64,000 nt of DNA from Acidobacteriaceae bacterium (GTDB taxonomy: Bacteria; Acidobacteriota; Terriglobia; Terriglobales; Acidobacteriaceae), in the NCBI GenBank assembly GCA_003134655.1, contig PLBY01000063.1:401-64400 (forward strand), given 5' to 3'. Every line of letters starts with the position of its first letter. The stretch's first letter is position 1. The position numbers were made by a program, and so were the translations under genes. Positions 35,750 to 55,187 of this stretch are shown here, one piece after another. The notes under the pieces were generated by a model. It made no database searches. It saw nothing but the letters and a program-made list of their open reading frames with translations, and had not been told where the DNA came from.

Positions 35750-35811
35750 GCACTATCCTTTCACAATCGCTTCGGATGCCCCGTCACGTCGGAAATCAGC
35801 AGCGGGCGGAG

Positions 35812-37209: not shown

Positions 37210-37236
37210 CTGAATGCCTCTCCCCTTTACGACAAC

Positions 37237-38472: not shown

Positions 38473-39620
38473 CAGAGCTGAATCTCCTTGCGGAGCGGAG
38501 CATGGATCCAGACAGTCTTGTGTCCTGTGACGAAATTCACAAATGCCATCAGCGCGGCCATATTCAACACGGCAAACGTGTAAGCAACTTCGACGATTCT
38601 TGACACCGGACCGAGCTTCCATCCGGTCCATCCCAACACGCTCAAGCAGTAGAACCCCAGCTGCACCCAAAATGCAGCACGGTAAAACGGGCCCGGCAGA
38701 AACGCCGCCGAGATCAATGTAGCAACCAACGCAAAGGGGACCGCCAGCCTCATCAACTTGTGGCTAATGAAGTCGAACCTCAGCGGGTTTTCTCCACGCA
38801 GCAACCAGGGCGCCAGTTGCAGGAGTTGGTAGTTGCCAGTTAACGTGCGCACCTTCCTTCGGAATTCGCGCTCCGCACCGAGGTCGGGACTATCCCAGGC
38901 TCTCGCCCGCTCGTCGAACAAAACCCGGAATCCCTGCCTCGCCACGTTCATCGGAATGAATACGTCATCCAGAATCGTTTCGGCTGGCACTTCGACTACC
39001 AGATCCCGTCGCACCGCGTACAGTGCACCCGTCGCACCGACCACCGACCCAGTGAGCGCTTCCAGTTCCCGCACGCGCTTCTCGATCCGCCAGTACAATC
39101 CCATTCCGCGACCGGTTTCCCCGTTCGTCGGATCTCCCAGCATGAGTTCCCCGCTGACTGCTCCCACTTCAGGGTCGGCAAAATTCTCCATCAGCAGGCG
39201 GACGGCCCCCGGTTCAATCTTCTGCCGCGCATCCGTGAACACGACAATGTCTCCCTGCGCCAGCTTCAGGCCGTCATTCAGTCCCACAGCCTTCCCGCCA
39301 GTCAACTGGTTGAGCACTACCTGCACTTGCGGGTTCTGCGCGTGCTCTCTCAGAATCGCTTCCGTCCCGTCCGTCGATCCATCGGAAATCACCACGATCT
39401 GATAGAGCTCCGCCGGATAATCCAACTCCAGCAGGTTGCGCATCTTCCCCGGCAGAGCGGCTTCTTCGTTGTGAACCACCATGACCACCGAAACCAGCGG
39501 CTCCCCAGCGCCACGCATCGCAGGTCGCGGACGCCACTGCGCGCGCAGCCACAACCAGGCAACGTATCCCGCGTAGGCATAGGCGGTCACAGCGACCGCC
39601 AGCCAGAACACCCACGTCAC
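38472..39620 (-). CDS. GT2 glycosyltransferase with N- and C-terminal TM segments
   Basis: VSVVMVVHNEE, ISDGSTDGT, VVFTDARQ (DxD-like) in GT-A order. GTG start overlaps the upstream stop (GTGA). Confidence 0.85.
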   Translation of the reverse strand: MTWVFWLAVAVTAYAYAGYVAWLWLRAQWRPRPAMRGAGEPLVSVVMVVHNEEAALPGKMRNLLELDYPAELYQIVVISDGSTDGTEAILREHAQNPQVQVVLNQLTGGKAVGLNDGLKLAQGDIVVFTDARQKIEPGAVRLLMENFADPEVGAVSGELMLGDPTNGETGRGMGLYWRIEKRVRELEALTGSVVGATGALYAVRRDLVVEVPAETILDDVFIPMNVARQGFRVLFDERARAWDSPDLGAEREFRRKVRTLTGNYQLLQLAPWLLRGENPLRFDFISHKLMRLAVPFALVATLISAAFLPGPFYRAAFWVQLGFYCLSVLGWTGWKLGPVSRIVEVAYTFAVLNMAALMAFVNFVTGHKTVWIHAPLRKEIQL

Positions 39621-40999
39621 TTTGCCCCCCGGCCCAGCAGGACAATTTTGATGGTCTGGAAAAGGATCACCAGGTCCAGCCCCACCGAAGCGTTCTTGAT
39701 GTAAAAAAGGTCGTACTGGAGTTTCTCGCGCGCATCTTCCAGCGTGTTGCCGTACTTGTACTGGACCTGCGCCCAGCCGGTGATTCCCGGCCGCACCGTG
39801 TGGCGAACGCCATAATAGGGGATCTCTTTACTCAGCCATTCCACAAATTCAGGACGCTCCGGACGCGGGCCTACAAAATGCATGTCGCCCTTCAGTACAC
39901 ACCACAACTGCGGAATCTCATCCAGGCGCGCCATGCGCAAAATCTTTCCGCCGCGGGTGATGCGCGGATCATCATCCGCAGCCCACGTTGCGCCAGTATC
40001 CGCTTCCGCATCCTGACGCATGGTGCGGAACTTATAGCAATAGAACGTCACACCACCCCGGCCCACCCGTTTCTGCCGGTACAGCACCGGACCGGGAGAA
40101 TCCAGCTTCACCGCCAACCAGATGAAAGGCAGCAGTGGAAGCGACACCGCCAGCCCAAGCAGCGCGACCGAGAAGTTCAATCCCCGTCGTATCAGCCGGA
40201 AGAAGCTACTGAAGCGGAAGCCCTCCGCGAAAATGAGCCAGCTCGGATTCAGGTTTTCCACTTCGATTCGTCCGTTGATCTTCTCCAGCCACGAGGTCGC
40301 TTCTTCCACCTTCACGCCCTCCAGCCGCAGCTCGAGCAATTCGTCCACGGGAAGCGTCCCACGGCGGTCTGGCATTGCAACGATCACCCGGTGCACCCCG
40401 TTCTCTCGCGCCAACCCGACCAGATGCGTCGCCACCGTCTCCCGCGTCAGCTCGCCGTCGATATTCCCCGTCCATCCCACAACCTCGATCCCGAGCTCGG
40501 AACGCTTACGCAATCCGTCCAGCAAGCGCTCCGCCCGCTCTCCCGTGCCCAGCACATATACCCGCTCGCGAAAATAAGACTGCTGCACAATCCAGGAATA
40601 AGCCCCCCGCCAGCCTAGAAGCATCACGGCCAACACGAGCAGTCCCCACTTCACCCCCGGGAGAAAGATGCGACCTGGGAGGAAGTGGTCGTAAACAAAA
40701 TCCACACCCGCTAAGGAAAATGCCACCAGACCCAACACCAGGAATAATCGGAAAACCTGATCCCACATGGCTCCCAACCTGGCCGAGTCGTAAAGATCCA
40801 GCCCGTGAGAAAGCAGCAGCACGATGGCCGTAACGCCGAGGATTTTTAGGTACCCGCCCTCGACATTGAGCAGGATCCAGTTCGTCTCCGGGTTTAGCCA
40901 CCAGGTCGCCAGTAGAAAAGAAGACCCCACGACCAGGGCCTCCACTACCAGAAGCACCAGCGTTCGTACCGGGTAATAAACGTTGAAGAGCCGGATCAC
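39617..40999 (-). CDS. Priming polyprenyl-phosphate sugar-phosphate transferase (bacterial sugar transferase, PEP-CTERM-locus type)
   Basis: N-terminal TM bundle, central Rossmann-like region. C-terminal YKFRTM...DPRIT..GKILR..LDEIPQLWCVLKGDMHFVGPRP...PGITGWAQV. Confidence 0.9.
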   Translation of the reverse strand: MIRLFNVYYPVRTLVLLVVEALVVGSSFLLATWWLNPETNWILLNVEGGYLKILGVTAIVLLLSHGLDLYDSARLGAMWDQVFRLFLVLGLVAFSLAGVDFVYDHFLPGRIFLPGVKWGLLVLAVMLLGWRGAYSWIVQQSYFRERVYVLGTGERAERLLDGLRKRSELGIEVVGWTGNIDGELTRETVATHLVGLARENGVHRVIVAMPDRRGTLPVDELLELRLEGVKVEEATSWLEKINGRIEVENLNPSWLIFAEGFRFSSFFRLIRRGLNFSVALLGLAVSLPLLPFIWLAVKLDSPGPVLYRQKRVGRGGVTFYCYKFRTMRQDAEADTGATWAADDDPRITRGGKILRMARLDEIPQLWCVLKGDMHFVGPRPERPEFVEWLSKEIPYYGVRHTVRPGITGWAQVQYKYGNTLEDAREKLQYDLFYIKNASVGLDLVILFQTIKIVLLGRGAK

Positions 41000-41014
41000 G
41001 TTCTGGACTTCTCC

Positions 41015-41956
41015 CTAGGCTTTGGCCGTGGTCGGTTTCTTCTGGTAAGACTCGTAGTAGTAGCGGTCGTAGGGCAGCGCCTCCTCGCGCGTGCCGTTCA
41101 ACACCACTCCCACCAGAGTCTGATCCGGAAATTCCTGGCGAGCCTTGCGGGCTTTTTCGAACGGCGTCGAATTTGATTTCACGACCATCAACACGCCGTC
41201 GCATGCTTTCGCCAGAACGCTCGCATCCGAGAACCACACCGCCGGTGGCGAGTCAATGATGATCCAGTCAAACAACGGCTCGACGCGTTGTAACAGGAGC
41301 TTGAGGCGTCCATTGCCAACCAGTTCCGCCGGATCCGCCGCCTTGGTGCCGCTCGCGATGAAGAAAAGATTCTCCAGAGGGCCCCGCTGCATGATGGAAA
41401 ACTCGTCGTTCTTTCCCAGCAGGTAGTCGGAGAGCCCCGGATCGGATGTCGTACCCAACATTGTGTCCAGACGCGGATTTCGCAGATCGGCATCGATCAA
41501 CAGCGCTCGGCGCCCGTGCTGCCGCACCATGACTTGCGCCAGGTTTGAGGACGTGAACGACTTGCCTTCCTTGGGCTCTGCGCTGGTGATCAACAGCTTC
41601 TTCAACGGCATCTTCTCGCGCAGGTGATACAGGCGCGAACGCAGGGTGCGGAATTCTTCTGTGCCGCGCGCACCGTCGTCGCCGTTCAGGAAAAGCATTG
41701 TCGTCGGATCCGGTGGTTTCCATTCCAGCTGCGCGCAGCGGGCCAGCAAGGTATCGGTATTGAACGGGCTGGCGAAAGCCGGCATCCCCGGACGTGCCGT
41801 CGCAGGGGACGCTGTCGCCCCCTCTTCGGACGGGTTTTCCGCGAAGACCGGAGGTTCGGCCACCGGAGTCGTGGCGAAGTTGGGCTGCACCGCGCCTCCC
41901 TGGGTCGCTGCCCGCTCCTGCTCCGCTTTTTTCAACGCTTCATGAATTCGGCTCAT
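41015..41956 (-). CDS. BY-kinase-type tyrosine autokinase (CpsD/CapB-like ATPase subunit)
   Basis: Walker A ITSAEPKEGKS, A' LLIDADLRNP, B IIIDSPP. C-terminal Tyr cluster PYDRYYYESY. Confidence 0.85.
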   Translation of the reverse strand: MSRIHEALKKAEQERAATQGGAVQPNFATTPVAEPPVFAENPSEEGATASPATARPGMPAFASPFNTDTLLARCAQLEWKPPDPTTMLFLNGDDGARGTEEFRTLRSRLYHLREKMPLKKLLITSAEPKEGKSFTSSNLAQVMVRQHGRRALLIDADLRNPRLDTMLGTTSDPGLSDYLLGKNDEFSIMQRGPLENLFFIASGTKAADPAELVGNGRLKLLLQRVEPLFDWIIIDSPPAVWFSDASVLAKACDGVLMVVKSNSTPFEKARKARQEFPDQTLVGVVLNGTREEALPYDRYYYESYQKKPTTAKA

Positions 41957-42915
41957 AGTTTCCTTTCGTCGGGGAGGTCCTTTTCTTCCTGCTTCAAGCG
42001 ATCGGCCAGCGTGGCCAGCGACCGCAGTGCATCCACCAGATCAAATTTTTCGCCACTCGCATTCGGCGCAGGTGCCGGCGTAACGAGTGCACCCGAGGTC
42101 GTGTTGTCGCCCAGATCGAAATCCCGTGCGACGCCATCGACCACGCCGGGTCCAATGATTTTCTGCTGATCGACAAACGCACTCACCAGGCAGTGTTCGC
42201 AGAGCAGGTTGATCACGCGCGGAATTCCCGATGCATAGCGGTGGATCGACACGAGCGCTTCGGGTTCAAAAATCTGCTGTCCATTCGATCCCGCGATGCG
42301 CAACCTCTGCTGCACGTAGGCTTTGGTCTCGTCGAGGGTGAGTGCATGCGTCTTAGCCCGCAGCGTGAGCCGCTGCCGCAACTGCCGCAACTGCGGCTGC
42401 TTCAGCTTTTGTTCCAGTTCCGGCTGTCCCACCAGGACGATCTGGAGCAGCTTTTCCGTGAACGTCTCCAGATTGGTCAACATGCGGATCTCTTCCAGAA
42501 CTTCGTCCGAAAGGTTCTGCGCCTCGTCGACGATGAGCACGGCCGTCTCGCCCGCCCGGTAACGATCAAGCAGCCAGTTGTACAGCCGCAGCAGGATCTG
42601 GCTCTTCGCCTTCGAATCACAGGGGATGCCGAAGTCGGCCATCATGTAATCCAGAAACTGCGGTGTGTTCAGTCGCGAGTTGAAAATGAATGCCGTGGCC
42701 ACCTGCTGCAGACGCAGCCATTCCAGCAGCTTGTTGATGAGTGTGGTCTTGCCCGTCCCCACTTCCCCGGTGAGCAGCACAAAACCCTTGCGGCTCTGGA
42801 TTCCATAGGTCAGGCATGCCAGCGCCTCCTCCGTGTGCCGCGTCAAGAACAGATAACGCGGGTCCGGATTAACGTTGAACGGGTTTGCCCGTAGTCCGTA
42901 GAAATCTTTGTACAT
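41953..42915 (-). CDS. ExeA-like AAA ATPase (PEP-CTERM-system-associated ATPase type)
   Basis: MYKDFYGLRANPFNVNPDPRYLFLTRHTEEAL... and Walker A LTGEVGTGKT are typical of GspA/ExeA-like proteins. Confidence 0.85.
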   Translation of the reverse strand: MYKDFYGLRANPFNVNPDPRYLFLTRHTEEALACLTYGIQSRKGFVLLTGEVGTGKTTLINKLLEWLRLQQVATAFIFNSRLNTPQFLDYMMADFGIPCDSKAKSQILLRLYNWLLDRYRAGETAVLIVDEAQNLSDEVLEEIRMLTNLETFTEKLLQIVLVGQPELEQKLKQPQLRQLRQRLTLRAKTHALTLDETKAYVQQRLRIAGSNGQQIFEPEALVSIHRYASGIPRVINLLCEHCLVSAFVDQQKIIGPGVVDGVARDFDLGDNTTSGALVTPAPAPNASGEKFDLVDALRSLATLADRLKQEEKDLPDERKL

Positions 42916-42937
42916 AAGTGGTCCCTAAGCGTTTCGC

Positions 42938-44509
42938 TTAAACTCCAACCGTGTCTTTATGCTCGTCCGGACTCTTGTCCCGGTTCCAGAACTTCAGCTT
43001 GCTGTTTCCGTTTTCCGGGACCACGACGCCCACCCACGGAACCGCCGCCAACAAGGGCAGGTCCAGAGCTGCTTCGGCATCGGCTTCGGTGCGGATCGAT
43101 TGGTCACGCAACTCGAACCACATCGCCAGACCGATTCCCAGAGCCAGCCCGGCACCGACGCCAACACCAAGGAAGATCCAGATATTCGGGAAGCTCGGAG
43201 AGTCCGGCAGGCTCGCCGGTTGGATCTCACTCATGCGCTCGCCCTGGGCCTGATTGGTCATATTCGACGTAAGATCGGCGGTGCTTTTCTTGGAAAGCAT
43301 ATCCTGATAATTCTTGTTCGCGCTGTCGTAGTCGTTCTTGAGCCTGCTGTAGGTTTCCTCTAGTCCCGGGCTCAGGTTCAAGTGTTGCTGGTACTGCGCG
43401 ATGAGTGGTTGCAGCCTCTTCCGCTCGCGCGTAGCCTCTGCAATTGCGTCCTCATCGTGGTGAAGTTGCTGCCGCAATTGCCGTATCTCGGGCGGTTCCA
43501 TCGCCGAGGCCTTCTCGTTGCTTGCTTCCGGCGCGTCCTCCGATGCCTTGTTGATTTCCGCAAGTTTCCTTCTCACTTCGGCGATGTTGGCCTTGGCCTT
43601 CATCACATCCGGATGGTCATCCGTATAGCGCGTCTGCAGGTCGATCAATTGAGTCTGCAAGTCGGATAACTGCTTTTGCAGCGTCTGCGGATTCGTCGAG
43701 GATTGTGTCGATTTCCACGCCGCCAACTGCTGCGCGAGCGCCGCCTGGTTAAAAGACTTGTCCTGTTCCGCCAGATTCAGGTTTTGGGTGTTACGGTCAT
43801 CCTGCTGGTTCAACCCCTGCAATATTTTCAGGTTGTTGTCTTGGTCCGTGGGAAGCTGCCCAAGGTGGGCGTTCTTGAAATCCGCCAGATCGCGGCCCAC
43901 AGCGTCGAGTTTGGCCTTCGCGTCCTCCAGCCCTTGCTTCAGCACATCGACGGTTCCCTTAGCGTTCTCTTGGATGAACTTCATGTTCTTGTCGATGATC
44001 TTCGAGGTCAGCGCCTCACAAACTCGTTGGGCGTCCCTCGGGTTCGAGGCCATGTAAGACACCATGAATCCGGGTGATTGGCTCTGCCCAGGTTTCTTCC
44101 TCAACGTTGAACCTGTGATCTGAGAGAGATCGGAGAACGGAGCACCCACCAGCGCCGGTTGGTTGCGCATATCATCTAAAGTGCCATCTATTTGTTGCGG
44201 GGTTCTATTCGGAAATAGCTGCGTCAGCATCGGCCGCATTTCGCTATCACTGGTCGCCAGCGCTCTCAGCATGCCGATGCGTGTCTGCAAATCGTCCGAA
44301 ACCACCGGTTGCACCATGCTCTCCGGCACCTTCTGACTCTCAATCAGCACCAGGGACGTCGAGGTGTACTTGGCGTAGTACCGGTTCACGACCAGGTAGG
44401 CAAGAAATCCCAGCAACGTCGCACCCACCACCGGAATAAGGATCACCTTCGCTCGCCGGCGCAGCATCGCCAGATAATCGTCCATCGTCAATTCGCGATT
44501 CTGAATCAT
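42938..44509 (-). CDS. Polysaccharide chain-length determinant (Wzz/PCP, PEP-CTERM-locus type)
   Basis: From MIQNRELTMDDYLAMLRRRAKVILIPVV (N-terminal TM). Long coiled-coil periplasmic region. C-terminal TM WIFLGVGVGAGLALGIGLAMW. Confidence 0.8.
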   Translation of the reverse strand: MIQNRELTMDDYLAMLRRRAKVILIPVVGATLLGFLAYLVVNRYYAKYTSTSLVLIESQKVPESMVQPVVSDDLQTRIGMLRALATSDSEMRPMLTQLFPNRTPQQIDGTLDDMRNQPALVGAPFSDLSQITGSTLRKKPGQSQSPGFMVSYMASNPRDAQRVCEALTSKIIDKNMKFIQENAKGTVDVLKQGLEDAKAKLDAVGRDLADFKNAHLGQLPTDQDNNLKILQGLNQQDDRNTQNLNLAEQDKSFNQAALAQQLAAWKSTQSSTNPQTLQKQLSDLQTQLIDLQTRYTDDHPDVMKAKANIAEVRRKLAEINKASEDAPEASNEKASAMEPPEIRQLRQQLHHDEDAIAEATRERKRLQPLIAQYQQHLNLSPGLEETYSRLKNDYDSANKNYQDMLSKKSTADLTSNMTNQAQGERMSEIQPASLPDSPSFPNIWIFLGVGVGAGLALGIGLAMWFELRDQSIRTEADAEAALDLPLLAAVPWVGVVVPENGNSKLKFWNRDKSPDEHKDTVGV

Positions 44510-44579
44510 CCTCGTATTCCTTCTGGCGGTTTCCCTCAACCTTGCAAGGCAAGGACGAAAACTCGCCGTCCTTTGAAAA

Positions 44580-46157
44580 TCAGTCAATCCGGATCGGCCG
44601 GGGGGTCCAATCCAATCCAAAAGTCACCAATTGCCGGTTCGAAATCCGGTTGCACAGAGTATTGGGCAAGCAGTACGACTGGTCGAACGCCAACTCGTTA
44701 AACTGGTAGCTGACAAATGCGTGGAAGTCCCGCCCAAACGCGCGGTGCAACCCACCCCCGATGAAGCCATACTGATTGCTGGTGGCGTCGTTGGCAGGAC
44801 AAGCGTTTTGGGAAGTCGACGTCTGCGAACTTGTGCATTCGATCACCTGCTGCTCAGTCAGGGGCTGCAACCGGCTGTTGTACGCATACCCGATGTCGGT
44901 GAATGCGTTCCAAACTCGCGTTAGAGGTCGGGTCGCGGTCAACCGCACGATGTTATTCTGCGTCCCCGCAAACACGCCCGACCCGCTGGTTTCGTAACGT
45001 TGAAAACTCAGATCCAACGATGTTTTCGTAAACTTGTAGCGCAACCGGGCCTGCGCCGCCACTCCGAGCTTCGTGTTCTTGAGGGTCGCGGAACCTAAGG
45101 AATCTCCTACGGCAGTACAGAGAAGGAGGGGAACCGTAGGATCACTGCACACGGCACTCTGGGTATCGATGAAGGTAAACTGCGGTCCCGCCCCCAGCAG
45201 CAAGTCCATCCGCCCTGAAATCCGGTGCCCGTACATCCCTTGGATAACGTGGGTATGAAACGCCGTCCCCTCGACTGAGAAATCGAACCCCTGATACCCA
45301 TAAACCAGCGCGATCTGAGTATGCGACGTGAGTATGCGGTTGTATCCCACCTGTGCCGAGGTCTGCGAGCTGCCGATAAATGCAGAGCCCGTCGATGCGT
45401 CGTTTCCGTAAAAATGCGTGAAGGCATATCCGCCGGCCGCCGTGATGGCTGACTTGGGTGTGAGGTTCTCGGAAATATCCCCGACGCTCACGTTCATGAT
45501 GCGCGGAGTCAGACCCAGGGTTCCCATGGCGGTGCCGCTCCAGAAACTGGAGAAGGCGGTGCCGCCGAGCGATCCAATCCCCTGCGACCCCTGCGAACCG
45601 TAGGCTCCCCCGAAATTGCCTTCAGGCAGATAGCTGAAGCTGTCACGCAGTGACAATTCTCCCCGCTTCCAGGTGATCTTCTGGTCGAGATCCATTTGTT
45701 GCAGTAACTTGCCGCCCTGTCCCTGCGAGGAGTAATACCCGCCGCCGCCCATATAGTCGAGAGCCAGATCGTAGTTACTCCACAACCGTTTCAACGTCAC
45801 GCTTCCCAGCGCGCGGGTAATGGAACTGACCCCGGATCCTCCTGCGACGTTGCCCGCGTTGGTCTGCGCCGACTCGCTGAATGTCGCTCCCGGTTGCACA
45901 TAACTCAGCGGCGCCGCATGCGGCTCCAGAGAGGGCAGATCCAATCCAGACAGCGGCGGATTCTCGCTCACGGGAGGCGGCGCATTCTCCTGTCCATAGG
46001 CCGGTATCGGCTCCTGCGGATTGTTCTGCGGCGCAGGCTCCTGCTGGCCGCTCGGCGCCGGCTCAGTCGACGGCGGCGTGGAACTGTCTTGGGCCCATGC
46101 TCCACTCAGCGCAAAAACCAGCATGCCCAGGATCCAGATGCTCTGAAGTTTTCTCAT
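44580..46157 (-). CDS. Outer-membrane beta-barrel protein of the EPS export module
   Basis: Signal peptide MRKLQSIWILGMLVFALSGAWAQ. Pro/Gln-rich linker, then alternating beta-strand pattern with many aromatic-Gly motifs. No family name confidently assigned. Confidence 0.65.
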   Translation of the reverse strand: MRKLQSIWILGMLVFALSGAWAQDSSTPPSTEPAPSGQQEPAPQNNPQEPIPAYGQENAPPPVSENPPLSGLDLPSLEPHAAPLSYVQPGATFSESAQTNAGNVAGGSGVSSITRALGSVTLKRLWSNYDLALDYMGGGGYYSSQGQGGKLLQQMDLDQKITWKRGELSLRDSFSYLPEGNFGGAYGSQGSQGIGSLGGTAFSSFWSGTAMGTLGLTPRIMNVSVGDISENLTPKSAITAAGGYAFTHFYGNDASTGSAFIGSSQTSAQVGYNRILTSHTQIALVYGYQGFDFSVEGTAFHTHVIQGMYGHRISGRMDLLLGAGPQFTFIDTQSAVCSDPTVPLLLCTAVGDSLGSATLKNTKLGVAAQARLRYKFTKTSLDLSFQRYETSGSGVFAGTQNNIVRLTATRPLTRVWNAFTDIGYAYNSRLQPLTEQQVIECTSSQTSTSQNACPANDATSNQYGFIGGGLHRAFGRDFHAFVSYQFNELAFDQSYCLPNTLCNRISNRQLVTFGLDWTPRPIRID

Positions 46158-46165
46158 CGCTTTCC

Positions 46166-46795
46166 TTACGGAACCACCACCGTGTCGCCCGGTTTCAGTT
46201 GGATGTTCTGTTCGGGGTGATTTCCTTTGATCACTTCCTTGTAGTTGAACGGCAATTTCTCCTGTTTGCCGTTCTCCGTGCGCAGCAGGTAAATCCCTTT
46301 GACATTGGCAAATTGCGTGAAACCCGCCTGCGACAGCGCTTGCAACATCGTCATGTGCGGCAGCAAAGCCATCGGCCCGGTGTGTACAACTTCTCCGGTC
46401 ACAAAAATGCGCCGGCTGTTCATCGCCATCACCACCACGGTCACCCGCGGATCCGCGATGAATTTCTTCAGTTTTTCGGTAATCGAATCCTTCAGCTGCA
46501 ACGGAGTCAGGCCCGCCGCTGGAATATCGTTCAGCAGCGGCATTGAGATCTTTCCGTCCGGGCGTACTGGCAGGGTTTCCGAAAGATCCGGTTCCTTCCA
46601 GACCGTAATGCGCAGCTGGTCGTCGGCTCCAATCGAATAATCGGAATCAGAAGATGCCTCTGACCCCTGCACAGTTGCTGCCGGCTTCGCATTCTTGTCT
46701 GCCTCGGTCTTCTCTGCACCGCTGGTCTGCGCCAGCAGTCCCGCTGCCAGTAAACCCATCCCCATCAACACTGCCAGTTTCATCGCTTTCGTCAT
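46166..46795 (-). CDS. Polysaccharide export protein (Wza-like; Poly_export + SLBB)
   Basis: YSIGADDQLRITVWKEPDLSETLPVRPDGKISMPLLNDIPAAGLTPLQLKDSI and C-terminal LKPGDTVVVP. Confidence 0.85.
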   Translation of the reverse strand: MTKAMKLAVLMGMGLLAAGLLAQTSGAEKTEADKNAKPAATVQGSEASSDSDYSIGADDQLRITVWKEPDLSETLPVRPDGKISMPLLNDIPAAGLTPLQLKDSITEKLKKFIADPRVTVVVMAMNSRRIFVTGEVVHTGPMALLPHMTMLQALSQAGFTQFANVKGIYLLRTENGKQEKLPFNYKEVIKGNHPEQNIQLKPGDTVVVP

Positions 46796-47793
46796 ACGGT
46801 CTCCGCGGAGTTAGGACGCTCCGTTCCTTCAAATCCAATTTGCTTCAACTTGTAGAGCAAAGCCTTGTAGCTGATCTGCAGTTCCTCCGCGGCCCGCCGC
46901 CGGTTCCAGCGGGTGCGCGTCAATGTGTTCAGGATCAGCTCCCTTTCCGCCTCGCGCGAGGCCGCCCGCGACGCTGCCTTCAGAGAAATTCCTCCTCCGT
47001 TGACGCCCGCCTCGGGCTTGCGCAACAAAGCGCGCAGACCGCCCAGGGCCACCTGCTCATCTCCCAGCGCCACCAGCACCCGGGCCGCGTCTTCCAGTTC
47101 CCGCAAGTTCCCTGGCCACGAATAATCGAGAAACAGGCGCAGGGTCTCGGCGCTCAGGTCAGGAACCGTACGACAGAAATCCCGCGCATACTTGCGCAGA
47201 AAGTGCCCCATCAAAAACGCAATGTCTTCTTTCCTCTGGCGCAATGGAGGCAGCCGCAGACACACACCGCTGATGCGGTAATAGAGATCCTCGCGCAACC
47301 GCCCCCGCTTGACTTCCACTTCCAGATCACGGGCGCTTCCACAAATCAGCCGGGTGCGATGGCTTGCGGCCACGCGTTTCCCATGCGATTGCGGTAACGC
47401 CTCCAGCAGGCGGGTCTGGCACTCCTGACTCAAGTCGGCCAACTCTTGCAGATAGATCGTTCCGGTGCTTGGCTGCGCGCCGTCGTCTTCTTGTTCCCGC
47501 AGAATCTCCAGGTCTTCTGGCTCGAGTCCTAGACACTGAAACCAACGGAAGGGCTGCGCGCTGCGTTGCGACATTTGATGGATGCGCTGCGCCGTGGCGT
47601 GCTTGCCCGCTCCCGGCTCAGCGAGCACGAGGACGGGAACATCGCTCTGCGCCAGTTCCCGGATCACTGCTTCCACCGGCCGCATGCTCGCGCTCACACC
47701 TTCCACGAACGCAAGTCCGGCCGGCTCGGCCGCCGAGCCTTCTCCGCTTTTCGCACGAGTTGGCAAGAAGTTGCCCATTTTTACCTTTTCCAC
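46792..47793 (-). CDS. EBP-like (sigma54-activator-fold AAA+ plus Fis-type HTH) regulator with degenerate ATPase and no GAFTGA loop
   Basis: Colinear with NtrC-type central domains (LREDLYYRISGVCLRLPPLRQRKEDI, WPGNLRELE, HTH RWNRRRAAEELQISYKALLYKLK). Walker A is AEPGAGKH, Walker B is IYLQEL, and GAFTGA is absent. Possible alternative start ATG 47778. Confidence 0.8.
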   Translation of the reverse strand: MEKVKMGNFLPTRAKSGEGSAAEPAGLAFVEGVSASMRPVEAVIRELAQSDVPVLVLAEPGAGKHATAQRIHQMSQRSAQPFRWFQCLGLEPEDLEILREQEDDGAQPSTGTIYLQELADLSQECQTRLLEALPQSHGKRVAASHRTRLICGSARDLEVEVKRGRLREDLYYRISGVCLRLPPLRQRKEDIAFLMGHFLRKYARDFCRTVPDLSAETLRLFLDYSWPGNLRELEDAARVLVALGDEQVALGGLRALLRKPEAGVNGGGISLKAASRAASREAERELILNTLTRTRWNRRRAAEELQISYKALLYKLKQIGFEGTERPNSAETV

Positions 47794-47841
47794 TTTATGC
47801 AGGGGACGGCCGATGCCCCCACGATTCGCTGTAGTTCTCAG

Positions 47842-47857
47842 AGCACGAGGATTGCCA
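47842..47857 (-). promoter_or_regulatory. Candidate sigma54 (-24/-12) promoter for the EPS operon
   Basis: Minus strand reads TGGCAATCCTCGTGCT (GG-N10-GC spacing correct), about 35-50 nt upstream of the regulator start. Confidence 0.4.
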
Positions 47858-48250
47858 CTGCGGTGAGTTCTGCCGACAAAGACAGAGATTCTATTGCACC
47901 TATTGTTTTCAATAACTTAGGACAAAAAGACTGAACCGGCGGGGGATGTTCCAGGATCTGGTCAGAATTCCGTTGCCCTGTGACTAGGGGATTTGTGGGA
48001 AAAACTTTTCTCACTTTGGGTGGCTCACTCTGCCACAGCTGCCACCCACTTTTTCACAAGTCGAGCGCCTTGAATTGAATTCTGCGGGGGCAACCTAAGG
48101 CCCATCCATCAAGCATAGTGGCCCGTACCGACCTCCGAAAGTTACCCCAGTAAGCCACCTCGGTACCGGAGTTTGCATTGCGCACCCGCGCTGTTTCGCT
48201 TATTCTCGAAGTTCCCCACCGCACAAATTCCGGTTCCCGTGGTCCAATAG

Positions 48251-49849
48251 GTGCAAACCGAGCAAGTGCATACCGAGCCCGAGCAAAGCGAGTCGTCAAC
48301 CGCCCGCCCGGCGTCAGCTGTCCTCAGAGCCGTTCCACTCTGGCAAGTGGGCATCCTGGCGGCGCTTTTGGTCTGGCTTTATTGGCCGACTCTCGTACGC
48401 CTGGTCCATCAGTGGCGGACCGATGACAATACCTCACACGGGTTCATCGTCCCTTTGTTCTCCGCCTTCGTGATCTGGCAGCAGCGCGATCGCCTCGCTC
48501 GGATCCTCACTCGGCCATCCTGGTCCGGCCTGGCCGCTCTGGTGGCCGGCCTGGGAGTTCTCATCTTAGGCCGCATGGGCGCGGAACTCTTCCTCGAGCG
48601 CTCTTCGGTGCTGCTGGTTCTGGCCGGGCTGGTAATCCTTCTTATCGGATGGAATTTTTTCCGCGCTGTGTTGTTCCCCTGGGCATTCCTGCTGATGATG
48701 ATCCCCATTCCCACCATCGTTCTGAATCAGATCACCTTCCCGCTACAACTGCTCGCCTCGCAGGTCGCTGCCACAGTGCTCCCCGTGTTCGGAGTTCCGG
48801 TCCTGCGCGAGGGCAACGTAATCAATCTGGCTGCCATGCCTCTCGAAGTGGCCGAGGCCTGCAGCGGCATTCGCTCTCTCATGTCTCTGGTGGCGCTCGC
48901 GATCATCTACGGATATCTGCTGGAAAAGCGCCTCTGGGTGCGCTGGTTGCTCGCTCTCGCCGCCGTGCCCATCACGGTTTTCGCCAACGATGTCCGCATT
49001 GTCGGCACCGGATTGCTCGTCCAGTATTGGGGTCCCGAGGCAGCCGAGGGCTATTTCCACGCTTCCTGGGGATTGATCACCTTCGCCATTTCTCTGCTCA
49101 TGTTCTACGGTCTGCACTCACTCATCCGCTTCTTTTTCCCCGAGAAGGGCGATGAGTCGCTCACAGCGGGCACTCCGGCAAGAATGACGGTGTTCCCGGT
49201 TGTGAAGAGCTCCACCACAAGTTTCGTCCTGGCCACTCTGCTGATCGCCAGCGCGGCCGTGCTCCTTCACGCACGCGCAGGCAGCGAAGTCTTTCCGCCA
49301 CGTCTTGAGCTGAAGGAGTTCCCCACGCAATTAGGCGACTGGACCGATGAGGATCGGGCAATCGAACAGGGGTCCCTCGATGTACTCAAGCCGAGTGATT
49401 ATCTTCTGCGGGTCTACTGGAACCCGGAAAAAACTCGGTACATCGATCTGTTCATCCCTTTTTACCGCAGCCAGCGTGTCGGAGAGTCCCCCCACTCGCC
49501 ACAGCACTGCCTCCCCGGATCAGGCTGGAGCCCGCTGGAAAACGAGCGCATCACTCTCACCATCCCAGGTCACGAACCGTTTCCCGTTAACCGCTATCTG
49601 ATTGCGAAAGGCGACTCCCGGCAACTCGTTCTTTACTGGTTCTGGGCGCATAATCGCGGAGTCGCCAGCGAGTACTGGGTCAAATACTACTTGGTGAAAG
49701 ATTCCATCAAGATGAACCGCAGCGACGGTTCCCTGGTACGCGTTACGACCCCGCTCTATCCCGGCGAGACAGCCGATGCCGCGCAGCAGCGCCTTCTTCC
49801 GTTCGTAGAGAAAGTTGTGCCTCTGCTGGACAGTTACGTTCCGCGCTAA
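48251..49849 (+). CDS. Exosortase (EpsH/Xrt family) fused to a C-terminal EpsI-family domain
   Basis: WRTDDNTSHGFIVP, MMIPIP, EVAEACSGIRSL (catalytic Cys context), FANDVRIVGTG, then an extra TM and an EpsI-like periplasmic domain (FPTQLGDW..., SPHSPQHCLPGSGW, LVLYWFW). Confidence 0.9.
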   Translation: MQTEQVHTEPEQSESSTARPASAVLRAVPLWQVGILAALLVWLYWPTLVRLVHQWRTDDNTSHGFIVPLFSAFVIWQQRDRLARILTRPSWSGLAALVAGLGVLILGRMGAELFLERSSVLLVLAGLVILLIGWNFFRAVLFPWAFLLMMIPIPTIVLNQITFPLQLLASQVAATVLPVFGVPVLREGNVINLAAMPLEVAEACSGIRSLMSLVALAIIYGYLLEKRLWVRWLLALAAVPITVFANDVRIVGTGLLVQYWGPEAAEGYFHASWGLITFAISLLMFYGLHSLIRFFFPEKGDESLTAGTPARMTVFPVVKSSTTSFVLATLLIASAAVLLHARAGSEVFPPRLELKEFPTQLGDWTDEDRAIEQGSLDVLKPSDYLLRVYWNPEKTRYIDLFIPFYRSQRVGESPHSPQHCLPGSGWSPLENERITLTIPGHEPFPVNRYLIAKGDSRQLVLYWFWAHNRGVASEYWVKYYLVKDSIKMNRSDGSLVRVTTPLYPGETADAAQQRLLPFVEKVVPLLDSYVPR

Positions 49850-52383: not shown

Positions 52384-52992
52384 TTAGCCCTTCAGCTTGC
52401 GACGAACCAGTCCAGCCAGACCGATCAACCCAGTTCCCAACAGGCTCAACGAGCCCGGTTCCGGAACTACGATGTTCGTGTCACCGCTCGAAATGGTCGT
52501 GCTGCCGTTGAAGTAGCCTCTGCCGGTGTTGATCGTCAACTGCACGGTCACACCTACGGTCGCCGCTCCGGAGCCGGTCCAGCCCGTTAGGGCGCCGGTC
52601 AGAGTGTAGTTATGCGTTCCGTTGGCCAGAGTCACCAGCGTCCAGGTCACAGGACCGTCAAACGTTCCCGTAAACAGGGTTCCGTTCGGAACTCCGCTGG
52701 TGCCGTTTCCAGTGATGGTGAACCATCCACCACCCGCGAATGTGCCGCCCATTTGCAACGAACCGCTCGTGAGGGCACCGGTTGAGAAGCCGACGCTGCC
52801 CAGGTTGTTCCCTGTGATCAGCCCGCCTCCATTGAGCCCATTAACGGCAATCAAGACGGATCCGCTCAGCGAAAGTCCCGCGCTCGAACCCGACAAGGTA
52901 CCGCCACTATTGGTGTAGTCTACGCTGCTGCCGGCAAACATCGCCGTTGGCAGGGCCAGTGCCAGTACAGCAAGCAAGAGGATTTTCTTCAT
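52384..52992 (-). CDS. PEP-CTERM sorting-domain protein (Gly/Ser/Thr-rich secreted protein)
   Basis: Signal peptide MKKILLLAVLALALPTAMFA. Canonical C-terminus VPEPGSLSLLGTGLIGLAGLVRRKLKG (PEP motif, TM, basic cluster). AGGAG RBS. Confidence 0.9.
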   Translation of the reverse strand: MKKILLLAVLALALPTAMFAGSSVDYTNSGGTLSGSSAGLSLSGSVLIAVNGLNGGGLITGNNLGSVGFSTGALTSGSLQMGGTFAGGGWFTITGNGTSGVPNGTLFTGTFDGPVTWTLVTLANGTHNYTLTGALTGWTGSGAATVGVTVQLTINTGRGYFNGSTTISSGDTNIVVPEPGSLSLLGTGLIGLAGLVRRKLKG

Positions 52993-53090: not shown

Positions 53091-53106
53091 TGCACCTCGA
53101 GTACCA
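53091..53106 (-). promoter_or_regulatory. Candidate sigma54 (-24/-12) promoter of the PEP-CTERM protein gene
   Basis: Minus strand reads TGGTACTCGAGGTGCA, against consensus TGGCAC-N5-TTGCW. The GG and GC invariants are at the correct spacing, about 100 nt upstream of the ATG. Confidence 0.55.
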
Positions 53107-53302: not shown

Positions 53303-54364
53303 TCAGTCCGCTGCTATGTCCTGCTTGGGGCTATCCGCGTCCCGCCGCTTGACCACCCGGTTCGAGGGCAGTCCGGCTTCGCGGATCTTGTAGAGCAAGG
53401 CGCGATAGCTGATGCTCAACGCCCGCGCCGTCTGCTTTCGGTTCCAATGACAATTCTGCAGAACCTTCAGGATGACTTTCCGCTCTAACTCGCGTACTGC
53501 CTGGCGGGTCAGCTTCTTCAGCGAAATCTGCCCGTCGACTGGGATTTCCGCGTTGAAGAAGTCGGTGGCCCGCGGCGCCAGATCGGACGAAATCACTTCT
53601 TCGTTGCCCAGAATCACGTAGCGCTTCACCAGGTTTTCCAACTCGCGGATGTTGCCCGGCCAGTGATATTTGCGCAACTCTGACATCAATTCGCTGGAGA
53701 GAGCGCGCGCCCGGCAGTTGTACTTCCGGTTGTGATACTCGAGAAAATACGCGACCAGTTCAGGAATGTCGCTCGCCCGTTCGCGCAGCGGAGGCAGGTG
53801 CAGATTCACCACATTGATCCGGTAAAACAGGTCCGATCGGAACGTGCCGTTTTCAATCTCCTGTTCCAGTTTGCGGTTGGTCGCGCACACCACCCGCACT
53901 TCTACTTTCTTGTCTTCCTGCGCGCCGATGCGGCAGAACTGCCCGTCCTGCAGGAGTTGCAGCAACTTCGACTGCAACGACATATCCAACTCGGAGATTT
54001 CGTCCAGAAACAGCGTGCCCCGGTGCGCCATCTCCACGCGCCCCGGCTTCATTCCGTAAGCGCCCGTGAACGCGCCCTTTTCGTAGCCGAACAATTCGCT
54101 CTCGAGCAGCGTGCCCGGAATCGCCGGACAATTCACTTTCACCCACGGGCCAGTGCGCCAGGGCGAAGTCGCATGAATCATGCGTGCGATGATGTCTTTG
54201 CCCGTTCCGCTCTCGCCCTGGATCAGAACCGGGACGTTGGCACTCGCCAGTTTGGTCAGGCGGTCGCGCACCGCCCGCATGCCCTCGGTGCGCCCGAAAA
54301 CAATCGCGTCGGGCGGCATTTCCCCCAAAGGCTGGACGAGTGAATTCACACTACTGGTTGTCAT
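53303..54364 (-). CDS. Sigma54-dependent activator (EBP) lacking any N-terminal sensory/receiver domain
   Basis: AAA+ core starts at about residue 25. Walker A GESGTGKD, ESELFGYEKGAFTGA, Walker B LFLDEI, C-terminal Fis-type HTH (HWNRKQTARALSISYRALLYKIRE). Confidence 0.9.
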   Translation of the reverse strand: MTTSSVNSLVQPLGEMPPDAIVFGRTEGMRAVRDRLTKLASANVPVLIQGESGTGKDIIARMIHATSPWRTGPWVKVNCPAIPGTLLESELFGYEKGAFTGAYGMKPGRVEMAHRGTLFLDEISELDMSLQSKLLQLLQDGQFCRIGAQEDKKVEVRVVCATNRKLEQEIENGTFRSDLFYRINVVNLHLPPLRERASDIPELVAYFLEYHNRKYNCRARALSSELMSELRKYHWPGNIRELENLVKRYVILGNEEVISSDLAPRATDFFNAEIPVDGQISLKKLTRQAVRELERKVILKVLQNCHWNRKQTARALSISYRALLYKIREAGLPSNRVVKRRDADSPKQDIAAD

Positions 54365-54401: not shown

Positions 54402-54417
54402 TGCACCCGGAGAGCCA
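54402..54417 (-). promoter_or_regulatory. Candidate sigma54 (-24/-12) promoter of the domain-less EBP gene
   Basis: Minus strand reads TGGCTCTCCGGGTGCA, 38 nt upstream of the ATG. GG-N10-GC spacing correct. Confidence 0.45.
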
Positions 54418-54564
54418 AAGGCACCCCGGCACACGACCGACCACCCAACTCTAACTTATGTAGTTGAAGAGTATCAACTTACCAAAGAGCAGGATGGGCA
54501 TACCCCGGTAATCAGGGATTGGTCCCAAGGGTAACACTCTGGAAGGCAGGATGCGCAAACATTT

Positions 54565-54942
54565 TCACACCGCAGAAGCGATTTTCCGCCGTCGGCCATT
54601 TGGACTGCCAGGCAGAAGCAACGGACGCGCGAACTTCAGGCCGAGCAAGTAGTACCCTTCGGCCGGAGTGCTGCGCAGAGCCTTGGCACGCAGGGTCCGG
54701 GACGCATTTGGCAATAACGCTAGCGCCGCCACCGGCGCACTGGGGATTTCCAGCCGGATCTGAGCAATCGCGGGCAAAGCCCGCCGAATTGCGACCAACA
54801 TCCCGCCCGCGCTCACGTTCAAGGCGGTCGCAAACTCAAGAAAGTCCTTGCCCTTCCCATCACGGCTGCGAACGAAAACGGGGACAGCCAGCGGCAACCT
54901 TGCCCACTTCCGCCGCTCATTTCCCGCTTTTCCGCCGTTCAT
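54565..54942 (-). CDS. Single-domain PilZ protein (c-di-GMP receptor type)
   Basis: ERRKWARLPL (RRxxxR) followed by ALNVSAGGMLV ((D/N)xSxxG) at the canonical spacing. 125 aa. Confidence 0.75.
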   Translation of the reverse strand: MNGGKAGNERRKWARLPLAVPVFVRSRDGKGKDFLEFATALNVSAGGMLVAIRRALPAIAQIRLEIPSAPVAALALLPNASRTLRAKALRSTPAEGYYLLGLKFARPLLLPGSPNGRRRKIASAV

Positions 54943-55171
54943 GCAGACTTCTCCATCGCTCTAAGCCCCCACGTCGGGAGCACCTGAGGGGCCAAATCCC
55001 GGCCAAATTCCGTGCAGAACCGGGCTGGAACACTGAACTCCGCCCGTCTCGGACTGCAAAACCAGTAAAGGAGCGGCAGTTTTCCGCACTTATATTCGCT
55101 TTCTGTTCGATTCTCATAAGTCCAGCCGTCAGCCCCATAGGTCATCAAAAGTGCAACCTTTTGCTACACTT

Positions 55172-55187
55172 GGGTAATTCTCGTGCA
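55172..55187 (+). promoter_or_regulatory. Weaker candidate sigma54 promoter upstream of the kinase/regulator pair
   Basis: GGGTAATTCTCGTGCA shares the GG-N3-T-N4-GTGC layout of the three minus-strand candidates. About 110 nt upstream of ATG 55299. Confidence 0.3.

What the first reader, a model, noticed from the sequence alone, without database searches (positions are those of the whole stretch)
46792..47793. First gene of the 16-kb EPS operon is an EBP look-alike with a degenerate ATPase and no GAFTGA loop
The protein is colinear with NtrC-type AAA+ central domains and keeps the Fis-type HTH, but three key elements are altered. Walker A is AEPGAGKH instead of GESGTGK(E/D). Walker B is IYLQEL (DE changed to QE). 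The ESELFGHEKGAFTGA segment that contacts sigma54 is replaced by PEDLEILREQEDDGAQPS. The two neighbouring EBPs (53303..54364 and 56219..57625) keep all three motifs, so this is specific degeneration rather than lineage drift. It has no receiver domain and is translationally coupled (ATGA) to the Wza-like exporter gene. Plausible roles are a DNA-binding repressor or anti-activator, a poison subunit forming mixed hexamers with the active EBPs, or a sigma54-independent regulator.
Basis: partly seen in the sequence, partly recalled or inferred. Interest (0 to 1): 0.65.

Follow-up and report, generated by a model that had tools for sequence, protein, structure and literature searches.

The report
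Disabled activator look-alike heading slime operon
The first gene of this soil bacterium's 16-kb slime (exopolysaccharide) export operon encodes a conserved copy of a sigma-54 activator that has lost the parts needed to activate, and the operon is itself driven by a sigma-54 promoter, so the protein most likely tunes its own operon rather than switching it on.

Summary
ORF 46792..47793(-) encodes a 333-aa protein with an EBP-type AAA+ domain and a Fis-type HTH. It has no receiver domain, the GAFTGA loop is deleted, Walker A is AEPGAGKH and Walker B is QE.

It is not an error. Orthologues occur in 79 Terriglobia genome loci and in two metagenome contexts examined at 34-39% identity. The gene always lies directly upstream of the Wza-like export gene. 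Eighty-seven of 94 GAFTGA-less cluster representatives form one clade. The AAA+ core is under strong purifying selection (dN/dS about 0.05). The P-loop lysine is kept, but the Walker B, glutamate-switch and sensor I residues are not.

New here: a sigma-54-type promoter (47842..47857) lies about 50 nt upstream of the gene. Its GG-N10-GC core is kept in 77/77 evaluable loci. Upstream lie an IHF-like site and a 20-bp palindrome (47995..48014). A related element precedes a sigma-54-type promoter of the canonical receiver-less EBP at 53303..54364.

Best model (inferred): a DNA-binding, hydrolysis-deficient pseudo-EBP that feeds back on its own operon. This would be a new variant of the known atypical-EBP class.

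The parts
46792..47793 (-). CDS of the GAFTGA-less, receiver-less EBP-like protein (pseudo-EBP), 333 aa from GTG 47793 (or 328 aa from ATG 47778)
   Evidence: Orthologues in 79 loci.
47050..47694 (-). AAA+ module (Sigma54_activ_2 res 34-184 plus AAA_lid_14 res 185-248)
   Evidence: dN/dS 0.049 for the core. Fold matches ZraR, NtrX, NtrC1 and PspF.
47599..47622 (-). Walker A variant AEPGAGKH (Lys kept, first Gly replaced by Ala)
   Evidence: Lys conserved in 88/94 family representatives.
47467..47520 (-). Remnant of loop L1: acidic, variable PEDLEILREQEDDGAQPS in place of ESELFG-x-E-x-GAFTGA
   Evidence: pLDDT below 50 at res 102-108. dN/dS 0.36 for L1 plus L2.
47440..47457 (-). Walker B variant IYLQEL; the Asp position varies freely among orthologues (Q/E/D/A/K/H)
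46840..46956 (-). Fis-type HTH_8 DNA-binding domain (res 280-318), almost invariant among orthologues
   Evidence: dN/dS 0.038.
47842..47857 (-). Sigma-54-type -24/-12 promoter TGGCAATCCTCGTGCT, about 50 nt upstream of the start codon
   Evidence: GG-N10-GC core at the same place in 77/77 evaluable loci; also present in distant loci.
47907..47919 (+). IHF-like site TTTCAATAACTTA (one mismatch to WATCAANNNNTTR) inside a conserved A/T-rich block between the palindrome and the promoter
   Evidence: Conserved block. The match to the IHF consensus is my reading of the sequence and the consensus is recalled, so this is inference.
47995..48014 (.). Perfect 20-bp palindrome GTGGGAAAAACTTTTCTCAC, candidate upstream activator/operator site about 150 bp upstream of the -24 element
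   Evidence: Conserved in about 50 loci. A related GTGGAAAAnnnTTTCCAC occurs in distant loci.
46166..46795 (-). Wza-like XrtA/PEP-CTERM exopolysaccharide export gene, ATGA overlap with the pseudo-EBP stop
31446..46157 (-). Rest of the tightly packed EPS operon: OM protein without family, chain-length determinant, TIGR03015 ATPase, Tyr kinase, priming transferase, glycosyltransferases, Wzy-like, Asn-synthase-like
53303..54364 (-). Canonical receiver-less EBP ('EBP2', 353 aa) with intact GAFTGA and Walker A/B; candidate activator and/or partner
   Evidence: 80-96% identical orthologues in 40 loci.
54402..54417 (-). Sigma-54-type promoter TGGCTCTCCGGGTGCA in front of EBP2
   Evidence: Conserved in 39 of 40 EBP2 loci plus the window.
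54551..54570 (.). Half-palindromic element (GTGTGAAAATGTTTGCGCAT on the EBP2 strand) about 135 nt upstream of EBP2's -24 element. It shares the GTGnGAAAA half-site with the EPS-operon palindrome.
   Evidence: the only other window match at 3 or fewer mismatches; 0.17 expected. Conserved in the EBP2 loci.
56219..57625 (+). Canonical REC-AAA+-HTH EBP ('EBP3', PrsR-like but below the PrsR cut-off), following a soluble histidine kinase

Best explanation
The gene encodes a 'pseudo-EBP'. It is a paralogue of sigma-54 activators that still binds DNA through a Fis-type HTH and probably still binds nucleotide and oligomerises through its AAA+ core. It has lost the L1/L2 loops that engage sigma-54 and the residues that hydrolyse ATP.

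The gene is transcribed as the first gene of the EPS export/biosynthesis operon. That operon has a classical sigma-54 promoter architecture (palindromic upstream site, IHF-like bend site, -24/-12 element), which must be opened by a GAFTGA-bearing EBP. The best candidate is the receiver-less EBP2, whose own sigma-54 promoter carries a related upstream element.

Most likely the pseudo-EBP feeds back on this circuit. It accumulates in proportion to operon expression. It then occupies the shared upstream site and/or joins the activator's ring as a non-productive subunit. Either action would damp or set the level of EPS-operon transcription.

Shown: the anatomy, conservation, synteny, promoter and palindrome. 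Inferred: DNA target, nucleotide binding without hydrolysis, direction of the effect, and the partner.
For: Loss of sigma-54-contact and catalytic elements, with retention of the P-loop Lys, R-fingers, sensor II and HTH.

Strong purifying selection on the AAA+ core (dN/dS 0.049) and the HTH (0.038), but relaxed on the L1/L2 remnants (0.36).

Invariant position directly upstream of the export gene, with overlap or a gap of about 20 nt or less in most loci: 79/79 Terriglobia loci and two contexts examined for members at 34-39% identity.

Sigma-54 -24/-12 core in 77/77 evaluable loci, with variable spacer positions and also in distant loci.

Conserved palindrome about 130-155 bp upstream. Its only other window match sits at the equivalent distance from a conserved sigma-54-type promoter of EBP2.

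No sigma-70-like promoter was found in the intergenic region.

A third conserved sigma-54-type promoter before the PEP-CTERM gene shows that the whole locus is a sigma-54 regulon, as described for proteobacterial PEP-CTERM genes (PMC1569441).

From my recollection of published PspF mixing experiments, rings that include GAFTGA-defective subunits lose activity.
Against: No direct evidence shows that this protein, rather than EBP2 or EBP3, binds the palindrome. The recognition helix ISYKALLYK is shared by most EBPs of this lineage, so it does not discriminate.

The sign of the effect is not inferable from sequence.

All characterised GAFTGA-less EBPs act at sigma-70 promoters (PMC6158489, PMC3162934), which favours the rival.

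In Acidiferrales orthologues the Walker A and B motifs are intact, so loss of hydrolysis is not universal in the family.

No EBP2 orthologue was seen within 8 kb in the Acidiferrales loci.

The structure model is only moderate (pLDDT 69.5). No complex could be modelled.
Confidence: 0.42

Rival explanations
1. Sigma-54-independent regulator of the atypical-EBP kind (like VpsR, NtrX, TyrR, R. capsulatus NtrC). It binds DNA and activates or represses sigma-70 promoters, for example the divergent exosortase-PrsT operon, using ATP or another ligand only for oligomerisation.
For: All characterised GAFTGA-less EBPs work this way (PMC6158489; PMC3162934; 10.1101/2023.06.06.543975). The P-loop is kept while catalytic residues are lost. 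The palindrome lies in a divergent intergenic region, about 237 bp from the exosortase start, where other conserved blocks exist. VpsR likewise controls a polysaccharide operon.
Against: No sigma-70-like promoter was detected in 47600..48400 (a simple consensus scan). The palindrome sits at enhancer distance from a conserved sigma-54 promoter, and the same kind of element precedes EBP2's sigma-54 promoter. In Acidiferrales and in locus L080 the divergent neighbour differs (PrsT or a REC-EBP), while the pseudo-EBP/promoter/export-gene module stays constant. The protein has no sensory domain, unlike all known atypical EBPs.
Confidence: 0.3
2. Obligate positive partner. It forms mixed oligomers or heterodimers with a canonical EBP (HrpR/HrpS-like or FleQ/FleT-like) and is required to tether or assemble the active ring at the EPS enhancer, giving positive feedback.
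For: The R-fingers, which act in trans on a neighbour's ATP, are strictly kept in this clade although the protein's own Walker B is broken. The AAA+ core is under strong constraint. EBP2's enhancer is a hybrid of two different half-sites, which would suit a heterodimer. Paralogous EBPs that interact are documented (PMC3105312, PMC9542535, PMC10084136).
Against: In the HrpR/HrpS pair both subunits are co-required AAA+ EBPs (PMC3105312); that both keep GAFTGA is my recollection, not something I checked. From my recollection of PspF mixing studies, GAFTGA-less subunits lower ring activity. R-finger and sensor II are conserved in only 64-68% of the wider family. Positive feedback from the first gene of a costly 16-kb operon would need another brake.
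Confidence: 0.15
3. It is still a genuine sigma-54 activator or active ATPase that uses a non-canonical contact.
For: Significant Sigma54_activat match. Sits behind a sigma-54 promoter. Acidiferrales relatives retain Walker A and B.
Against: The whole L1 loop is deleted and L2 is shortened and variable. GAFTGA integrity is reported as essential for sigma-54 activation (PMC3162934). The Walker B Asp position is unconstrained.
Confidence: 0.03
4. Artefact: sequencing error or a decaying pseudogene.
For: Two orthologues (L048, L052) appear frameshifted or truncated.
Against: The same motif state appears in 120 listed cluster representatives and 79 loci from independent assemblies. dN/dS is about 0.05. 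The family is deep and monophyletic.
Confidence: 0.01

Closest known systems
VpsR of Vibrio cholerae (atypical EBP controlling the vps polysaccharide operons)
   Same: EBP-type AAA+ plus HTH. Lacks GAFTGA and has a non-consensus Walker B (ND instead of DE). Regulates an exopolysaccharide locus (PMC6158489).
   Different: VpsR has an N-terminal receiver domain, binds c-di-GMP and acts at sigma-70 promoters lacking -24/-12 elements (PMC6158489). The present protein has no N-terminal domain, sits in a sigma-54-driven operon, and is no closer to VpsR (92 bits) than to canonical ZraR (138 bits). The loss of GAFTGA is therefore independent.
NtrX (Brucella/Caulobacter), TyrR/PhhR, HupR, DhaR, and NtrC of Rhodobacter capsulatus and Caulobacter
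   Same: Members of the recognised 'atypical EBP' class with a defective or deleted L1 loop. Some need ATP binding but not hydrolysis. NtrX acts as a repressor (PMC6158489; PMC3162934; 10.1101/2023.06.06.543975). NtrX is among the top structural matches.
   Different: All carry N-terminal sensory or receiver domains and are reported to act with sigma-70. None is reported as the leader gene of a sigma-54-dependent operon. The present family forms its own clade.
PrsR, the PEP-CTERM-box sigma-54 response regulator (TIGR02915)
   Same: Regulator associated with XrtA/PEP-CTERM EPS loci whose genes carry sigma-54 promoters (PMC1569441).
   Different: PrsR has a receiver domain and an intact activator domain. 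This protein scores 150.9 bits against a cut-off of 502.6 and lacks both the receiver and GAFTGA.
Interacting EBP paralogue pairs (HrpR/HrpS; VnfA/AnfA; RedR1/RedR2) and protein anti-activators of EBPs (PspA, NifL, FleN, HrpV)
   Same: Precedents for EBP activity being set by a second protein that joins or binds the AAA+ ring (PMC3105312, PMC9542535, PMC10084136, PMC8528422, PMC12998190).
   Different: As far as I recall, the paralogue pairs are both functional EBPs with GAFTGA. The known anti-activators are unrelated folds, not EBP paralogues. A catalytically disabled, GAFTGA-less EBP paralogue used as a built-in modulator has not, to my knowledge, been described.

Membership tests
Canonical bacterial enhancer-binding proteins (sigma-54 activators) | AAA+ domain homologous to Pfam Sigma54_activat | tested here: met
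   84.9 bits against a cut-off of 20.2, but split into two stretches; neighbours score 218-220 bits.
Canonical bacterial enhancer-binding proteins (sigma-54 activators) | GAFTGA motif on loop L1 that contacts sigma-54 | tested here: not met
   Segment deleted or replaced, net 13 residues shorter. Absent in all 79 orthologues.
Canonical bacterial enhancer-binding proteins (sigma-54 activators) | Walker B hhhhDE, glutamate-switch Asn and sensor I Asn (ATP hydrolysis) | tested here: not met
   QE, Gln and Ala respectively. Family-wide conservation is 43%, 19% and 11%, against 89-100% in canonical relatives.
Canonical bacterial enhancer-binding proteins (sigma-54 activators) | Walker A GxxGxGK, R-fingers, sensor II Arg | tested here: met
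   AEPGAGK with Lys kept; LREDLYYR; WPGNLRELE.
Canonical bacterial enhancer-binding proteins (sigma-54 activators) | C-terminal Fis-type HTH | tested here: met
   HTH_8, 41.2 bits.
Canonical bacterial enhancer-binding proteins (sigma-54 activators) | ATP-dependent open-complex formation with sigma-54 RNAP | not testable with these tools
   Needs biochemistry.
Atypical (GAFTGA-defective) EBPs: TyrR, PhhR, HupR, NtrX, VpsR, DhaR, alphaproteobacterial NtrC | EBP-type AAA+ plus HTH with a defective or deleted L1 motif | tested here: met
Atypical (GAFTGA-defective) EBPs: TyrR, PhhR, HupR, NtrX, VpsR, DhaR, alphaproteobacterial NtrC | N-terminal sensory or receiver domain controlling activity | tested here: not met
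   Only about 33 disordered residues precede the AAA+ domain. No Pfam domain there and pLDDT below 50 for res 1-38.
Atypical (GAFTGA-defective) EBPs: TyrR, PhhR, HupR, NtrX, VpsR, DhaR, alphaproteobacterial NtrC | Acts at sigma-70-dependent promoters | not testable with these tools
   Its own operon promoter is sigma-54-type. No sigma-70 consensus found in the intergenic region. Targets are unknown.
Atypical (GAFTGA-defective) EBPs: TyrR, PhhR, HupR, NtrX, VpsR, DhaR, alphaproteobacterial NtrC | Orthology to one of the named proteins | tested here: not met
   NtrX 102 bits and VpsR 92 bits, below canonical ZraR at 138 bits. Separate clade.
PrsR (TIGR02915) | Score above the curated cut-off; REC plus an intact activator domain | tested here: not met
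   150.9 bits against 502.6; no REC.
c-di-GMP-binding EBPs (FleQ/FlrA type) | LFRS Arg, post-Walker-A Arg-Asn and ExxxR residues that bind c-di-GMP | not tested
   Residue list recalled from memory only. No FleQ alignment was made. A PilZ gene nearby (54565..54942) shows c-di-GMP signalling in the locus, but nothing links it to this protein.

The most novel reading that the evidence does not exclude
A naturally encoded dominant-negative pseudo-enzyme in sigma-54 control. In this reading the operon's first product is a GAFTGA-less, hydrolysis-dead EBP paralogue. It co-assembles with, or displaces, the canonical receiver-less EBP at a shared enhancer. That would give an intrinsically autoregulated (pulse- or level-setting) sigma-54 promoter, a control principle not described for enhancer-dependent transcription. 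It would be conserved across Terriglobia EPS loci.
Probability: 0.25. Interest if true: 0.72.

Novelty: new variant of a known kind. Interest (0 to 1): 0.55.

Why it matters
Acidobacteriota are among the most abundant soil bacteria, and their exopolysaccharides shape soil aggregation and survival, yet regulation of these loci is essentially unstudied. This family is currently auto-annotated as 'sigma 54-interacting regulator' or 'AtoC response regulator', which is misleading. Recognising it as a GAFTGA-less, receiver-less pseudo-EBP corrects regulon predictions. It also supplies a defined, testable circuit: a sigma-54 promoter, a 20-bp palindrome, a canonical EBP with a related enhancer, and a disabled paralogue as operon leader. 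If the feedback or poison-subunit model holds, it would be the first EBP-derived anti-activator and a natural example of pseudo-enzyme control of an AAA+ transcription machine. If instead the protein acts at sigma-70 promoters, it would extend the atypical-EBP class to a sensor-less form outside Proteobacteria.

Tried and rejected
1. Shared recognition helix as evidence of a shared DNA target. All three EBPs in the window carry ISY[KR]ALLYK, but so do most canonical and non-canonical relatives of this lineage. Rejected as discriminating evidence.

2. Structure route. The AlphaFold model is only moderate (pLDDT 69.5). Foldseek returned generic EBP AAA+ domains with TM about 0.4. This confirms the fold but says nothing about function.

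3. Sigma-70 promoter scan of 47600..48400 found nothing. The scan is simple, so this is weak negative evidence.

4. A PWM built from the 72 promoter sites was too tailored to find other promoters in the window. The simpler TGG-N9-TGC[AT] pattern was used instead.

5. A search for the palindrome near the PEP-CTERM gene promoter found none.

6. A single A-to-S change in the recognition helix coincides with a changed upstream element in Acidiferrales. That is one event, too weak to use.

7. Literature searches for this family in Acidobacteria or PEP-CTERM systems found nothing specific.

8. Error or pseudogene reading rejected.

9. Membership in PrsR, NtrX or VpsR rejected.
Full report
**Observation.** The ORF 46792..47793 on the minus strand is real. 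It translates to a 333-aa protein from the GTG at 47793. An in-frame ATG at 47778 has a better Shine-Dalgarno-like context, so the true start may be five codons later.

Pfam finds a weak, split Sigma54_activat match of 84.9 bits. The two neighbouring EBPs score 220.5 and 218.0 bits. Pfam also finds Sigma54_activ_2, AAA_lid_14 and HTH_8, and no receiver domain. No NCBIfam equivalog is reached; PrsR (TIGR02915) scores 150.9 bits against a cut-off of 502.6.

- Walker A is AEPGAGKH.
- Walker B is IYLQEL.
- The ESELFG-x-E-x-GAFTGA loop is replaced by a shorter acidic stretch.

The alignment adds three more changes:
- The sensor I Asn is lost (CATNR to CGSAR).
- The glutamate-switch Asn becomes Gln.
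- The pre-sensor-I (L2) insertion is shortened.

The Walker A lysine, both arginines of FRxDLYYR and the sensor II WPGNLRELE are kept. The ATGA stop/start overlap with the Wza-like gene is in the sequence.

**Not an error, and not recent.** A search of 5.8 billion proteins lists 120 cluster representatives at 80-98% identity; a sample of 27 of them aligned with the window protein is near-invariant through the AAA+ core. A scan of one genome per species found 202 relatives, of which 79 loci were fetched. Nearly all are Terriglobia: Ca. Sulfotelmatobacter, other Terriglobales and Acidiferrales.

The motif table shows a graded series:
- Acidiferrales orthologues (45-50% identity) keep GESGTGKE and FDEI but already lack GAFTGA.
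- Intermediate Terriglobales have mixed states.
- The Sulfotelmatobacter clade has AExGAGKH, and the Walker B Asp position is free (Q, E, D, A, K, H).

An exhaustive profile-free search of 50%-identity representatives gave 94 full-length GAFTGA-less relatives with a median length of 323 aa. Conservation of key residues in these, against 35 canonical relatives, is:

| Residue | GAFTGA-less (n=94) | Canonical (n=35) |
|---|---|---|
| Walker A Lys | 94% | 89-100% for all seven residues |
| Walker B Asp | 43% | |
| Walker B Glu | 55% | |
| Glutamate-switch Asn | 19% | |
| Sensor I Asn | 11% | |
| R-finger | 64% | |
| Sensor II Arg | 68% | |

In a neighbour-joining tree, 87 of the 94 form one clade with no canonical member (no support values). 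This indicates a single old origin.

Against the window sequence, about 46 close orthologues give these dN/dS values (dS is near saturation, so the values are rough):
- AAA+ core: 0.049
- HTH: 0.038
- L1/L2 remnants: 0.36

The AAA+ domain is therefore a constrained, working module, not a relic. The AlphaFold model (pLDDT 69.5; L1 and L2 below 50) matches EBP AAA+ structures such as ZraR, NtrX, NtrC1 and PspF.

**Context.** Downstream on the same strand are the following genes:
- an XrtA/PEP-CTERM-type export protein
- a conserved outer-membrane protein with no family
- a chain-length determinant
- the TIGR03015 ATPase
- a tyrosine kinase
- the priming transferase
- glycosyltransferases
- a Wzy-like protein
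- an Asn-synthase-like protein

They are tightly packed down to 31446. Upstream and divergent are a fused exosortase-EpsI and PrsT. Further on lie a PEP-CTERM protein, the receiver-less canonical EBP2, a PilZ protein, a soluble histidine kinase and the REC-containing EBP3.

In all 79 loci the orthologue is followed by the same five genes in the same order, wherever the contig extends that far. The gap to the export gene is an ATGA-type 4-nt overlap in 15 loci and roughly 20 nt or less (or a short overlap) in most of the others. Two family members at 34-39% identity, looked up in metagenome assemblies, have the same layout with a 4-nt overlap.

**New finding: the operon is sigma-54-dependent.** A match to the -24/-12 consensus, TGGCAATCCTCGTGCT, lies at 47842..47857(-), about 50 nt upstream of the start. 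The same element occurs at the same distance in 70 loci. Seven more have CGGCAAT-N4-CGTGC at that place. The GG-N10-GC core is therefore present in all 77 loci whose upstream sequence is available.

Beyond the positions required by the search pattern, the flanking C-A and C-G are also conserved, while the spacer varies. The two distant loci have TGGAAC-N5-ATTGCA about 40 nt upstream.

Upstream, the close clade conserves two further blocks:
- An A/T-rich block containing TTTCAATAACTTA at 47907..47919. This is one mismatch from the IHF consensus as I recall it.
- A perfect 20-bp palindrome, GTGGGAAAAACTTTTCTCAC, at 47995..48014, about 150 bp upstream of the -24 element. It is conserved in about 50 loci. 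A related GTGGAAAAnnnTTTCCAC occurs in the distant loci.

This is the textbook enhancer / bend / -24/-12 layout.

Searching the whole window for the palindrome with up to three mismatches gives only one other match, against 0.17 expected. That match is at 54551..54570, which lies about 135 nt upstream of a second sigma-54-type element (54402..54417) in front of EBP2. Both the element (GTGTGAAAATGTTTGCGCA) and the promoter are conserved in essentially all 40 EBP2-containing loci.

A third conserved sigma-54-type promoter precedes the PEP-CTERM gene, in 31 of 41 sequences including the window. This echoes what Haft et al. described for Proteobacteria (PMC1569441).

**Interpretation.** The protein cannot open sigma-54 complexes itself, yet it is made from a sigma-54 promoter that needs a GAFTGA-bearing EBP. 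Its HTH is the most conserved part of the protein and its AAA+ core is strongly constrained. The P-loop is kept while the hydrolysis residues drift.

The most economical model is a DNA-binding, nucleotide-binding but non-hydrolysing pseudo-EBP that feeds back on the circuit that makes it. It could do so by occupying the shared enhancer or by entering the activator's ring as a dead subunit. EBP2 is the most likely activator and partner, for three reasons:
- It has no receiver domain and so needs control in trans.
- It is highly conserved (80-96% identity).
- It carries the related enhancer.

I rate this at about 0.42. The steps from 'binds DNA' onward are inference.

**Rivals.**
- A sigma-70-type regulator like VpsR, NtrX or TyrR (0.30). 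Every characterised GAFTGA-less EBP works that way (PMC6158489, PMC3162934, 10.1101/2023.06.06.543975).
- An obligate positive partner in a mixed ring (0.15).
- A still-active activator (0.03), or an artefact (0.01), are effectively excluded.

**Comparison with known systems.** The protein belongs functionally to the recognised 'atypical EBP' class. It fails two features of its characterised members: it has no N-terminal sensory domain, and it is orthologous to none of them. It also differs in sitting at the head of a sigma-54-dependent operon. It is not PrsR. No paper on this family was found.

I therefore class it as a new variant of a known kind, of moderate interest (0.55). It has a more novel possibility: an EBP-derived built-in anti-activator (probability about 0.25).

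**Limits.** All functional statements beyond anatomy, conservation and synteny are inferred. The presence of sigma-54 in the genome is assumed from the canonical EBPs and promoters. The tree has no support values. dS is near saturation. Heteromeric complexes could not be modelled.

Noticed in passing
window 53091..53106 (-): Sigma-54-type element TGGTACTCGAGGTGCA about 100 nt upstream of the PEP-CTERM protein gene (52384..52992). A TGGTACTC-N3-GTGCA element is found downstream of EBP2 in 31 of 41 sequences including the window. This parallels the sigma-54 motif reported upstream of proteobacterial PEP-CTERM genes (PMC1569441).
   Followed up: partly
window 54565..54942 (-) and 54979..54994 (-): A 125-aa PilZ-domain ORF (Pfam 31.6 bits) lies between EBP2 and the histidine kinase. 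It is preceded by another sigma-54-like site, TGGCCCCTCAGGTGCT. This suggests c-di-GMP input into the locus. Conservation was not checked.
   Followed up: no
window 55172..55187 (+): Sigma-54-like site TGGGTAATTCTCGTGCA about 85 nt upstream of the probable real start (about 55275) of the soluble histidine kinase that precedes EBP3. The listed ORF from 54519 is over-extended.
   Followed up: no
window 48172..48203 (+): Conserved blocks GTTTGC-N-TTGC-N-C and TTTCGCTTAT upstream of the exosortase gene. The first contains TTGCGCA, which also forms the second half of the EBP2 enhancer element. This may be another binding site or the exosortase promoter.
   Followed up: partly
window 44580..46157 (-): A 525-aa protein with a signal-peptide-like N-terminus and no Pfam or NCBIfam match. 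It is nevertheless conserved in third position of the operon in all loci, including the most distant ones. Probably an uncharacterised outer-membrane component of this EPS system.
   Followed up: no
L048 8001..9248; L052 8013..8633: Two orthologues look frameshifted or truncated: the HTH is out of frame in L048, and L052 stops at 206 aa. Both come from MFD-series MAG assemblies, so assembly indels are as likely as real pseudogenisation.
   Followed up: no
L080 5925..7361: In a distant member's locus the divergent neighbour is a 478-aa REC-containing canonical EBP instead of the exosortase. A canonical activator can therefore sit immediately next to the pseudo-EBP.
   Followed up: no
window 57726..61241 (-): A 1171-aa secreted-type protein with DUF7948, SBBP beta-propeller repeats and DUF11, and a C-terminal hydrophobic/basic tail. 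It lies next to EBP3 and may be cargo of the sorting system.
   Followed up: no
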